Shown: positions 1 through 3,000 of the stretch, one piece after another
How the letters are laid out: each line of letters starts with the position of its first letter
Position numbering within the stretch: position 1 is the first letter of the stretch
Source of the DNA: a virus
Lineage: Duplodnaviria > Heunggongvirae > Uroviricota > Caudoviricetes
Reading direction: 5' to 3' (one strand)
Virus record (IMG/VR): IMGVR_UViG_2706794680_000004
DNA length: 25,367 bases
Position numbers: made by a program

Positions 1-3000
1 CCACGGGAATATCTGCGGCAGCGGGCTTGTAATGGGTTAAGTGATAACAGATGTCTGGAAATATAGGGGCAAATCCAATCGTCGCCGTATTCCCGTATTA
101 ACAGAGACCGTAGCCCGACGGGGAACTCCTTCTGCGCGAGTGTGCGGGAATAATCAAAAACGATGCACACCGGGGTTACCGGGTACACATATTTCATCAT
201 GCCAGCGAGTCCGGTTCTGGCACGGAAGAAACCGGACGTTATGATTTAGTGCGGAAATATTTGTGTAGTGTTCTGTATGTTCTCAGTAAAGAGTAATGAA
301 TTATCAAAGGTATAGTAATACCTTTTGTTTTCGTGGATATTTGTAATCCATCTGAAAACCCCTGCTGTAGCAAGATTTTTCCTGTATTCGTAAAATGATA
401 ACTCTCCTGATTTGAATCCTTTTAAGGTGGCTTCTATAAGGCATTTATTTTTTGAAAATCTTACATTTACAACCTTACCCTGTCCTTTTATTAAAACCGT
501 ATTATCGTTTTCAAGAACAAGATGAATATTCTCTGTGGCTAAATAGTAAATGTAATGTGAGACATTGTGACGTTTTAGTTCAGAATAAAACCAGTGATAG
601 TTTAAATTATTTCGCACTTTATCGAATATTTGTTTAAAAATGGCAACCTGAGCCATTGTAGTACCTTCCATGTGATATGAGGGGGCGTAGTCTGCACGAT
701 TATCTAAATTGCTTCAATCTGGTCTAACCTGTTTTCTGAGCAATTCAGTAATGTCACTCTTTTCTTTGTTTGCTTCAGGCGAAACTCTTTTTTCTGAGCA
801 CAGTCTCCGGCGGCAGGCTTCAATGACCCAGGCTGAGAAATTCCCGGACCCTTTTTGAACAAGAGCGATGTTAATTTGTTCAATCATTTGGTTAGGAAAG
901 CGGATGTTGCGGGTTGTTGTTCTGCGGGTTCTGTTCTTCGTTGACATGAGGTTGCCCTGTATTCAGTGTCGCTGATTTGTATTGTCTGAAGTTGTTTTTA
1001 CGTTAAGTTGATGCAGATCAATTAATACGATACCTGCGTCATAATTGATTATTTGACGTGGTTTGATGGCGTAGATGCACGTTGTGACATGTAGATGATA
1101 ATTATTATCATTTTGCGGGTCCTTTCCGGCGATCCGACAGGTTACGGGGCGGAAGGCGCGCGGGTTTTCGCTATTTATGACAATTTTCCGGTTTAAGGCG
1201 TTTCCGTTCTTCTTCGCCGTAACCTAATGTTTTTATTTAAAACACCCCCTGAAAAGAAAGGAAACGACAGGTGCTGAAAACGGGCTTTTTGGCCTCTGTC
1301 GTTTCCTTTCTCTGTTTTTGTCCGTGGAATGAACAATGGAAGTCAACAAAAAGCAGCTGGCTGACATTTTCGGTGCGAGTATCCGTACCATTCAGAACTG
1401 GCAGGAACAGGGAATGCCCGTTCTGCGAGGCGGTGGCAAGGGTAATGAGGTGCTTTATGACTCTGCCGCCGTTATAAGATGGTATGCCGAAAGGGATGCT
1501 GAAATTGAGAACGAAAAGCTGCGCCGGGAAGTTGAAGAACTGCGGCAGGCCAGCGAGACAGATCTCCAGCCAGGGACTATTGAGTACGAACGCCATCGAC
1601 TTACGCGTGCGCAGGCCGACGCACAGGAGCTGAAAAATGCCAGAGACTCCGCTGAAGTGGTGGAAACCGCATTCTGTACTTTCGTGCTGTCGCGGATCGC
1701 AGGTGAAATTGCCAGTATTCTCGACGGGATCCCCCTGTCGGTGCAGCGGCGTTTTCCGGAACTGGAAAACCGACATGTTGATTTCCTGAAACGGGATATC
1801 ATCAAAGCCATGAACAAAGCAGCCGCGCTGGATGAACTGATACCGGGGTTGCTGAGTGAATATATCGAACAGTCAGGTTAACAGGCTGCGGCATTTTGTC
1901 CGCGCCGGGCTTCGCTCACTGTTCAGGCCGGAGCCACAGACCGCCGTTGAATGGGCGGATGCTAATTACTATCTCCCGAAAGAATCCGCATACCAGGAAG
2001 GGCGCTGGGAAACACTGCCCTTTCAGCGGGCCATCATGAATGCGATGGGCAGCGACTACATCCGTGAGGTGAATGTGGTGAAGTCTGCCCGTGTCGGTTA
2101 TTCCAAAATGCTGCTGGGTGTTTATGCCTACTTTATAGAGCATAAGCAGCGCAACACACTTATCTGGTTGCCGACGGATGGTGATGCCGAGAACTTTATG
2201 AAAACCCACGTTGAGCCGACCATCCGCGATATTCCGTCGCTGCTGGCGCTGGCTCCGTGGTATGGCAAAAAGCACCGGGATAACACGCTCACTATGAAGC
2301 GTTTTTCCAATGGTCGTGGCTTCTGGTGCCTGGGCGGTAAAGCGGCAAAAAACTACCGTGAAAAGTCGGTGGATGTGGCGGGTTATGATGAACTTGCTGC
2401 CTTTGATGAGGATATTGAACAGGAAGGCTCTCCGACGTTCCTTGGCGACAAACGTATTGAAGGCTCGGTCTGGCCAAAGTCCATCCGTGGCTCCACGCCC
2501 AAAGTGAGAGGCACCTGCCAGATTGAGCGTGCAGCCAGTGAATCCCCGCATTTTATGCGTTTTCATGTTGCCTGCCCGCACTGCGGGGAGGAGCAGTATC
2601 TTAAATTTGGCGACAAAGAGACGCCGTTTGGCCTCAAATGGACGCCGGATGACCCCTCCAGCGTGTTTTATCTCTGCGAGCATAATGCCTGCGTCATCCG
2701 CCAGCAGGAGCTGGACTTTACTGATGCCCGTTATATCTGCGAAAAGACCGGGATCTGGACCCGTGATGGCATTCTCTGGTTTTCGTCATCCGGTGAAGAG
2801 ATTGAGCCACCTGACAGTGTGACCTTTCACATCTGGACAGCGTACAGCCCGTTCACCACCTGGGTGCAGATTGTCAAAGACTGGATGAAAACGAAAGGGG
2901 ATACGGGAAAACGTAAAACCTTCGTAAACACCACGCTCGGTGAGACGTGGGAGGCGAAAATTGGCGAACGTCCGGATGCTGAAGTGATGGCAGAGCGGAA

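What the first reader, a model, noticed from the sequence alone, without database searches (positions are those of the whole stretch)
1141..1170. cosN cohesive-end sequence differs from lambda while terminase and flanks are lambda-like
The flanks are conserved: ...ccgacaggttacg (to 1146) matches the lambda right end and cgcgggttttcgctatttatga... (from 1159) matches the lambda left end. The 12 nt between them read GGGCGGAAGGCG, whereas the canonical lambda cohesive end is GGGCGGCGACCT. Five of 12 positions differ, all in the right half. Nu1 and the visible parts of gpA are nearly identical to lambda. Either this prophage makes a different sticky end, or cosN is degenerate and the prophage cannot be packaged efficiently.
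Basis: partly seen in the sequence, partly recalled or inferred. Interest (0 to 1): 0.5.

Follow-up and report, generated by a model that had tools for sequence, protein, structure and literature searches.

The report
Natural cosN sticky-end variant, lambda-like prophage
The prophage's DNA-cutting site carries a different but common natural version of the lambda sticky end, changed only in the half of the site already known to tolerate change, so it is most likely a working packaging site and an ordinary finding.

Summary
Window 1147-1158 reads GGGCGGAAGGCG where lambda has GGGCGGCGACCT. The five differences are at bp 7, 8, 9, 10 and 12, and the flanks, cosQ, cosB, Nu1 and the visible parts of gpA are lambda-like.

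It is not a degenerate site or an assembly error. The same 12-mer with the same right flank occurs in 78 IMG/VR viral contigs and in 158 of 5,426 complete E. coli genomes (169 places, about 2% of lambda-type cos places). It sits on at least 8 different cosQ-cosN spacer haplotypes and next to several Nu1 and gpA types. It lies next to an intact large-terminase reading frame at least as often as the canonical site. No gpA residue tracks it.

[quoted passage not shown] It is frequent on N15-like phage-plasmids.

Feiss and colleagues have reported that natural differences at bp 7-12 are common in lambda-like phages. They also reported that right-half mutations have little effect, because cosB-bound Nu1 positions gpA for the bottom-strand nick.

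Verdict: a functional allelic cosN that should give a different, self-compatible 12-nt sticky end. The phenomenon is known and interest is low. The virion ends have not been measured.

The parts
1117..1123 (+). cosQ (GGGTCCT), the packaging-termination element upstream of cosN
   Evidence: Exact match located. It is invariant in all 7 aligned phages. Its position corresponds to lambda 48473-48479 through the window/lambda offset; the lambda coordinate of cosQ is from my own knowledge. Feiss 2015 reports no apparent natural variation in cosQ.
1145..1160 (.). cosN as the 16-bp unit: the 12-bp cohesive-end sequence plus the conserved CG dinucleotide on each side. The predicted nicks are on the top strand between 1146 and 1147 and on the bottom strand between 1158 and 1159.
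   Evidence: CGGGGCGGAAGGCGCG found. The 16-bp definition and nick positions come from PMC9026076. The flanking 5'-CG-3' pairs are retained, as in other lambda-like phages. The nick positions are inferred by homology and were not measured.
1147..1158 (+). The cohesive-end 12-mer GGGCGGAAGGCG. The left half (bp 1-6) is identical to lambda. The right half (bp 7-12) is AAGGCG instead of CGACCT.
   Evidence: The same 12-mer is in phages PhiR46_1 and YDC107_1, in 78 IMG/VR contigs and in 158 complete E. coli genomes.
1196..1211 (+). cosB R3, the Nu1 (TerS) binding site that anchors gpA for the bottom-strand nick. It corresponds to lambda bp 50-65, is identical to lambda, and keeps lambda's spacing from cosN.
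   Evidence: AGGCGTTTCCGTTCTT located. R3 = bp 50-65 and the critical cosN-to-cosB spacing are from PMC9026076. There are no indels between cosN and R3 in the alignment.
1255..1270 (-). cosB R2, the inverted copy of the 16-bp R sequence CTGTCGTTTCCTTTCT
   Evidence: Exact inverted match. It is conserved in all aligned phages.
1296..1311 (+). cosB R1, the direct copy of the 16-bp R sequence
   Evidence: Exact match; conserved.
1336..1881 (+). Nu1 (small terminase subunit), 181 aa, 178/181 identical to lambda
   Evidence: K48R, A75T, L132I.
1856..3822 (+). A (large terminase subunit, gpA/TerL). Residues 1-429 and 512-641 are readable; residues 430-511 are masked by N at 3143-3428.
   Evidence: 426/429 and 130/130 identical to lambda, with differences T151S, D185E and L404R. 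The 286 N replace 245 nt in every relative, so the mask does not keep length and the frame cannot be followed through it.

Best explanation
This is a working cos site of a lambda-like prophage that carries a natural allele of cosN. Nu1 binds R3/R2/R1 of cosB and places gpA on cosN. gpA nicks the top strand 5' of G1147 and the bottom strand opposite 1158/1159. The virion DNA would then carry 12-nt 5' overhangs: GGGCGGAAGGCG at the left end and its complement CGCCTTCCGCCC at the right end. Both ends of a chromosome come from copies of the same cosN in a concatemer, so the ends are self-complementary and cyclisation is unaffected. Only annealing with canonical lambda ends would be impaired, with 5 mismatches in 12. 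The allele is tolerated because all its changes lie at bp 7-12. That is the half next to cosB, where the nick is positioned by the Nu1-R3 anchor rather than by base-specific contacts. What is shown: the sequence, its conservation, its distribution, its linkage to intact lambda-type terminases, and its presence in an isolated temperate phage. What is inferred: the exact nick positions and normal packaging efficiency for this particular prophage.
For: (1) The other cos elements are intact and correctly spaced: cosQ, the flanking CG pairs, the left half GGGCGG, and R3, R2 and R1. (2) The exact 12-mer with the lambda-type right flank is in 78 IMG/VR contigs. A 40-mer spanning it is in 158 of 5,426 complete E. 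coli genomes, 169 places, against 8,147 places for the canonical 40-mer. (3) It sits on at least 8 different cosQ-cosN spacer haplotypes. It occurs with Nu1 types 35-99% identical to lambda and with gpA types of about 66% and 98-100% identity. The hexamer itself is unchanged across these backgrounds, which is not how a decaying site behaves. (4) When the left half was left free in the search, all 78 contigs still had GGGCGG. With the left half fixed, at least 12 different right-half hexamers turned up. (5) 35 of 40 variant loci have an open frame of at least 630 codons for the large terminase, against 43 of 57 canonical loci. (6) No gpA residue is diagnostic of the allele, and 4 identical gpA proteins are shared by the two groups. 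(7) Phage PhiR46_1 (PV340565, host ECOR13) has the exact 12-mer. Its gpA differs from lambda's at 3 of 641 residues, all of them polymorphisms also seen next to canonical cosN. [quoted passage not shown] (8) Published work (PMC4669245) states that differences at bp 7-12 are common in lambda-like cosNs: N15 and phiD326 differ at 9 and 12, and Gifsy-1 at 8, 9 and 11. [quoted passage not shown] (9) Overhang stability is unchanged: 10/12 G+C in both alleles, with nearest-neighbour Tm of 46.1 against 47.7 C under the same conditions. (10) All readable head and tail genes in the window are full length and 94-100% identical to lambda through gene I.
Against: No virion-end sequence or cos-cleavage assay for this allele was found, and the 12-mer appears in no phage paper in the searchable library. 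No GenBank phage record starts at this site. The published tolerance data cover single changes and the two-change N15 allele, not five simultaneous changes. Rotational symmetry of the 16-bp cosN falls from 10 to 8 bp. For this prophage specifically, 82 gpA residues are masked. The rare substitution L404R lies in what I recall to be the nuclease part of gpA. The early genes and attachment sites lie outside the window, so inducibility cannot be judged.
Confidence: 0.88

Rival explanations
1. cosN is degenerate. The prophage is defective or cryptic, the right half of cosN has drifted, and the DNA is cut and packaged poorly or not at all.
For: Five changes in a 12-bp site are more than in any allele for which I found experimental data. 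Symmetry falls from 10 to 8 of 16 bp. Many E. coli cos sites belong to cryptic prophages; this is from my own knowledge, although the canonical site does occur at up to 8 places per genome. Part of gpA is masked and the rare L404R is present in this copy.
Against: Drift would give scattered, different changes. Instead, one identical hexamer is kept on at least 8 flank haplotypes, in 78 viral contigs and in 158 genomes. Terminase frames next to it are intact at least as often as next to the canonical site. It is carried by an isolated temperate phage and by N15-like phage-plasmids with full structural gene sets. The window's own readable head and tail genes are full length.
Confidence: 0.04
2. 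Sequencing or assembly error across a G+C-rich stretch.
For: None beyond the general possibility. Raw reads are not available.
Against: The identical sequence appears in many independent assemblies from different laboratories and platforms, including complete genomes.
Confidence: 0.01
3. The allele is functionally distinct rather than neutral. One version: it defines a separate cohesive-end compatibility group kept by selection, for example to avoid annealing with ends from co-resident canonical lambda-like prophages or cos-bearing satellites. Another version: it shifts the bottom-strand nick. The sequence GGCG|CG|CGGG offers a second CG two bases to the left, which would give a 10-nt overhang.
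For: The allele frequencies are strongly bimodal: canonical is far the most common, AAGGCG has 78 contigs, and every other right-half hexamer has 1-3. AAGGCG is relatively enriched on plasmids, with 16 variant against 20 canonical places, compared with 153 against 8,127 on chromosomes. A two-base cohesive-end mismatch already lowers viable yield about 4-fold, so a 5-base mismatch should be a stronger barrier.
Against: Bimodality is also expected from common descent plus mosaic recombination. One-step neighbours exist: CAGGCG and AAGGCT. Both ends of a normal chromosome come from the same phage, so compatibility with other phages has no obvious effect on fitness. The nick position is reported to be set by the cosN-to-R3 spacing, which is unchanged here. 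Lambda and N15 terminases show no cosN specificity.
Confidence: 0.07

Closest known systems
cosN of bacteriophage lambda (GGGCGGCGACCT)
   Same: Same position between cosQ and cosB. Identical flanking CG pairs, identical left half GGGCGG, identical R3, R2 and R1 with the same spacing. The adjacent Nu1 and gpA are 98-100% identical.
   Different: bp 7, 8, 9, 10 and 12 differ (AAGGCG against CGACCT). Symmetric positions are 8 of 16 instead of 10 of 16. The overhang would not pair fully with lambda's.
cosN of Escherichia phage PhiR46_1 (PV340565) and YDC107_1 (CP025712), which are N15-like ('Ravinvirus') phage-plasmids with lambda-type terminase and heads
   Same: Identical 12-mer and identical right flank. 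gpA is 638/641 identical to lambda in PhiR46_1.
   Different: The spacer left of cosN differs (CCGGCAGGCTACG against CCGACAGGTTACG). Nu1 is 168/181 identical to the window's. Those phages resemble linear plasmid prophages such as pEC21Z151-46K. The nearest chromosomal relative of the window is an integrated prophage in APEC E14033.
cosN of phage N15 and phiD326 (GGGCGGCGTCCG)
   Same: A characterised natural allele with changes confined to the right half. Position 12 is G, as here. Lambda terminase uses it as well as its own site.
   Different: Only two changes (bp 9 and 12). N15 has a divergent right flank and a single-R cosB.
cosN of Gifsy-1, and the inferred cosN of LLS and mEp213 (GGGCGGCGCGCT)
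   Same: Further natural right-half variants of the lambda-type 12-nt overhang. Gifsy-1 differs at bp 8, 9 and 11. LLS/mEp213 is described.
   Different: Different hexamers and more distant terminases.

Membership tests
cosN of lambda-like phages (12-nt 5' cohesive ends) | [quoted passage not shown] | tested here: met
   Window 1147-1152 = GGGCGG. It is invariant in all 78 contigs carrying this allele even when the search left it free. The literature reports the left half to be under selection.
cosN of lambda-like phages (12-nt 5' cohesive ends) | Conserved 5'-CG-3' dinucleotides flanking both nick positions | tested here: met
   CG at 1145-1146 and at 1159-1160. Described as highly conserved.
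cosN of lambda-like phages (12-nt 5' cohesive ends) | cosQ upstream and cosB (R3, R2, R1) downstream at lambda's spacing | tested here: met
   GGGTCCT at 1117-1123, R3 at 1196-1211, R2 at 1255-1270 (inverted) and R1 at 1296-1311. There are no indels relative to lambda between cosQ and Nu1. The I1 IHF site was not examined separately.
cosN of lambda-like phages (12-nt 5' cohesive ends) | Adjacent genes for a lambda-type terminase (Nu1 and gpA) | tested here: met
   Nu1 is 178/181 identical. gpA is 426/429 and 130/130 identical over the readable parts. 82 gpA residues are masked.
cosN of lambda-like phages (12-nt 5' cohesive ends) | Partial two-fold rotational symmetry of the 16-bp site (10 of 16 bp in lambda) | tested here: inconclusive
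   8 of 16 bp are symmetric here; pairs 3/10 and 6/7 are lost and pair 4/9 is gained. Symmetry is descriptive rather than defining. The site is functionally asymmetric, and the symmetric partner change C11G has no phenotype.
cosN of lambda-like phages (12-nt 5' cohesive ends) | Terminase introduces nicks staggered by 12 bp, giving complementary 5' overhangs on virion DNA | not testable with these tools
   This needs virion DNA end sequencing or an in vitro cos-cleavage assay. The only indirect support is that PhiR46_1 carries the allele and was isolated and listed as a temperate phage.

The most novel reading that the evidence does not exclude
AAGGCG is not a neutral allele but a second cohesive-end compatibility type maintained by selection. 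It is over-represented on N15-like phage-plasmids. It keeps their chromosomes from annealing with, or being joined to, ends produced from the many canonical lambda-type cos sites in the same cell. Alternatively, it is cut in a shifted register to give a shorter overhang.
Probability: 0.07. Interest if true: 0.35.

Novelty: already known. Interest (0 to 1): 0.1.

Why it matters
It matters little beyond annotation. The finding shows that a lambda-type cos site should not be called defective because bp 7-12 differ from lambda. Predicted genome termini for such prophages should use their own 12-mer. There are two practical consequences. DNA from such a phage would not anneal or ligate efficiently to lambda cohesive ends, which is relevant to cos-end ligation assays and cos-based mapping. 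About 2% of E. coli lambda-type cos places, and a much larger share of those on phage-plasmids, carry this alternative end. The natural pattern (left half invariant, right half polymorphic) is an independent population-level confirmation of the functional asymmetry of cosN described genetically by the Feiss laboratory.

Tried and rejected
1. Full-text search for the 12-mer found only an unrelated plant paper. I did not search the reverse complement.

2. Vahanian et al. 2017 (Virology 509:140), the survey of natural cosN variation, is not held. I could only see how others cite it, so I cannot say whether it lists this exact allele.

3. The scan of one-genome-per-species contigs gave 9 hits. Only one (Escherichia sp. 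E1V33) is a real cos site; the others are chance matches in G+C-rich genomes. Several hits of the loose pattern were likewise chance matches.

4. I looked for co-variation between the allele and gpA and found none. This rejects the idea that a specialised nuclease goes with the variant site.

5. I looked for GenBank phage records that begin at the variant end, which would indicate determined termini, and found none. No IMG/VR contig in the set ends at the site either.

6. The apparent truncation of gpA (a 544-aa ORF) comes from the N mask, not from a frameshift. The mask is 41 nt longer than the sequence it replaces in every relative.

The evidence for left-half invariance therefore comes from the 78 AAGGCG contigs and the literature only.

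8. The search for the paper describing the PhiR phages failed directly. Their provenance was recovered through PMC13190303.

Full report
**What is in the sequence**

The window reads ...GGGTCCTTTCCGGCGATCCGACAGGTTACG | GGGCGGAAGGCG | CGCGGGTTTTCGCTATTTATGA..., with the 12-mer at 1147-1158. Lambda has GGGCGGCGACCT at the same place. The differences are at cohesive-end positions 7, 8, 9, 10 and 12. Five random differences would all fall in that half with probability 0.0076.

The flanks are lambda-like. Window 785-1146 matches lambda 48141-48502 at 95.0%, and window 1159-3142 matches lambda 13-1997 at 98.1%. Nu1 is 178/181 identical to lambda. gpA is 426/429 identical over residues 1-429 and 130/130 over residues 512-641.

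The window contains four runs of N. One, at 3143-3428, hides gpA residues 430-511 and explains the apparently short gpA ORF. It is 41 nt longer than the sequence it replaces in every relative, so the mask does not keep length.

**The rest of the cos site is intact**

- cosQ (GGGTCCT) is at 1117-1123.
- The CG dinucleotides flanking both predicted nicks are present, so the 16-bp cosN unit is 1145-1160.
- R3 (lambda bp 50-65) is identical to lambda at 1196-1211.
- The 16-bp R sequence CTGTCGTTTCCTTTCT is present inverted at 1255-1270 (R2) and direct at 1296-1311 (R1).
- There is no indel between cosQ and the Nu1 start codon relative to lambda. This matters because the cosN-to-R3 spacing is reported to be critical.

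Downstream, every readable head and tail gene from Nu1 through I is full length at 94-100% protein identity to lambda; K and I are each partly hidden by the mask at 15773-16022. J, lom and the side-tail-fibre region are more diverged. The window is the late region of a lambda-like prophage. Its closest relative among complete E. coli genomes is an integrated prophage of APEC E14033. That prophage has the same cosN and is annotated with intact small (181 aa) and large (641 aa) terminase genes.

**The 12-mer is a recurrent natural allele**

- Exact matches to the 12-mer with lambda-type flanks occur in 78 IMG/VR viral contigs.
- A 40-nt query centred on the site was designed so that every 28-nt BLAST seed had to span the variant bases. 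It hits 169 places in 158 of 5,426 complete E. coli genomes.
- The matching canonical 40-mer hits 8,147 places in 4,283 genomes. The variant is thus about 2% of lambda-type cos places.
- Sixteen of the variant places are on plasmids, against 20 plasmid places for the canonical site.
- One such plasmid, pEC21Z151-46K, is an N15-like phage-plasmid. It carries protelomerase and RepA, with a lambda-type Nu1, gpA and heads and a lambda-like tail gene set in which gpJ is annotated as frameshifted.

The allele sits on at least 8 different cosQ-cosN spacer haplotypes, some very unlike lambda's. It occurs next to Nu1 proteins 35-99% identical to lambda's and next to gpA proteins of both the roughly 66% and the 98-100% classes. 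Recurrence in independent assemblies excludes an assembly error. An unchanged hexamer across this many backgrounds is not what decay of a dead site looks like.

**No sign that the allele marks defective prophages or a specialised nuclease**

Among loci with at least 2.9 kb of sequence downstream, 35 of 40 variant loci have an open frame of at least 630 codons for the large terminase. The figure for canonical loci is 43 of 57.

I compared 37 full-length lambda-type gpA proteins next to the variant with 34 next to the canonical site. No residue is diagnostic, and four identical gpA sequences occur in both groups. The same enzyme is evidently paired with either site.

**A live phage carries it**

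In the GenBank phage collection, two records hold the allele: YDC107_1 and PhiR46_1. PhiR46_1 (PV340565, laboratory host ECOR13) has a gpA differing from lambda's at three residues (N9D, S21A, T466I). All three are polymorphisms also seen next to canonical cosN.

[quoted passage not shown] That paper reports efficiency-of-plaquing data for a panel of those lambda-related phages. I did not see the primary isolation paper. I also found no direct determination of its DNA ends, and no GenBank record starts at this site.

**What is already known about such variation**

Feiss and colleagues (PMC4669245) state that differences at bp 7-12 are common among the cosNs of lambda-like phages. N15 and phiD326 differ at bp 9 and 12. 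I confirmed GGGCGGCGTCCG in the N15 record. Gifsy-1 differs at bp 8, 9 and 11. The same paper makes these points:

- Many mutations in bp 7-12 have minimal phenotype, while symmetric left-half changes are severe: G2C reduces yield about 10-fold and C11G has no effect. This is cited to Xu & Feiss 1991.
- The asymmetry reflects the proximity of the right half to cosB.
- Lambda terminase gives the same burst with cosN-lambda as with cosN-N15.
- The flanking CG pairs and cosQ are conserved.
- Maintenance of bp 7-12 is not under selection.

Another right-half variant, GGGCGGCGCGCT, is inferred for phages LLS and mEp213. A dedicated survey exists (Vahanian et al. 2017, Virology 509:140), but it is not in the library.

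My own scans agree with this picture. With the left half fixed, at least 12 right-half hexamers occur with lambda-type flanks, including the one-step neighbours CAGGCG and AAGGCT. With the right half fixed as AAGGCG and the left half free, all 78 contigs have GGGCGG.

**Mechanism proposed**

Nu1 bound at cosB anchors gpA. gpA nicks the top strand between 1146 and 1147 and the bottom strand between 1158 and 1159. The resulting 12-nt overhangs are GGGCGGAAGGCG and its complement.

Both ends of each packaged chromosome derive from copies of the same site, so the ends pair perfectly. Predicted duplex stability is about the same as lambda's: 10/12 G+C in both, with nearest-neighbour Tm of 46.1 against 47.7 C. 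Pairing with a canonical lambda end would leave five mismatches. A two-base mismatch already costs about 4-fold in viable yield.

The homology-based parts of this account (site identity, spacing, enzyme identity) are shown. The nick positions and the efficiency are inferred.

**Rivals**

- A degenerate site in a defective prophage is unlikely, for the reasons above (about 0.04).
- An assembly error is very unlikely (about 0.01).
- A functionally distinct allele cannot be excluded (about 0.07). The possibilities are a selected compatibility type or a shifted nick using the second CG in GGCGCGCGGG. The bimodal allele spectrum and the enrichment on phage-plasmids are the only hints. Both are also explained by descent plus mosaic recombination.

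**Verdict**

It is an allele of a well-understood site, changed only where natural variation and mutational tolerance are already documented, and it is present in public phage genomes including an isolated temperate phage. I rate it as already known in kind, with the caveat that I found no text naming this exact 12-mer and no measured ends. Interest is about 0.1.

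Noticed in passing
window 3143-3428, 15773-16022, 20180-20429, 25027-25287: There are four runs of N (286, 250, 250 and 261 nt). The first hides gpA residues 430-511. It replaces 245 nt in lambda and in four other relatives, so the mask does not keep length and reading frames cannot be followed across it.
   Followed up: partly
window about 3065-3067 (gpA codon 404): gpA carries L404R. This is a rare substitution, seen in 2 of 37 variant-cosN loci and 0 of 34 canonical loci. 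From my own knowledge, the residue lies in the nuclease part of the large terminase. It is not linked to the cosN allele in general.
   Followed up: no
E. coli complete genomes; L230 (NZ_CP101200.1, pEC21Z151-46K): The AAGGCG allele is relatively enriched on plasmids of about 46 kb: 16 plasmid places against 20 for the canonical site, while chromosomes have 153 against 8,127. The one plasmid I examined is an N15-like phage-plasmid with protelomerase and RepA but lambda-type terminase, head and tail genes. These resemble N15 in lifestyle while carrying a cosB with three R sites, unlike N15's single R.
   Followed up: partly
L162 and L170 (IMG/VR contig IMGVR_UViG_3300045988_113976, 56,122 bp): A single 56-kb viral contig holds two copies of the variant cos site. 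It could be tandem prophages, a concatemer-like assembly, or two related elements side by side.
   Followed up: no
IMG/VR loci L076, L220, L225, L226, L232-L240: Other rare right-half cosN hexamers occur with lambda-type flanks: CGACCG, CAGACG, CAGGCG, CTGACG, CAACCT, AGACCT, TGACCT, GAGCGT, AAGCGT and AAGGCT, each in 1-3 contigs. Position 11 is C in all but two of these alleles.
   Followed up: partly
window 1182: There is an A-to-C change at lambda bp 36, in the spacer between cosN and R3 (ATGACAATTTT against ATGAAAATTTT). None of the six aligned phages shares it.
   Followed up: no
window 19367-24511: The C-terminal part of J, the lom-like gene and the side-tail-fibre genes are much more diverged from lambda (39-93% protein identity, with rearranged stf segments) than the head and tail-shaft genes. 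This suggests a different receptor specificity.
   Followed up: no
L231 4966-5259 (APEC E14033 prophage, upstream of cos): The closest chromosomal relative carries the serum-survival gene iss (a bor homologue) just upstream of cos. The corresponding part of the window (1-780) matches that relative only over window 78-174 (about 94% identical) and matches lambda 46875-47527 at about 83%.
   Followed up: no
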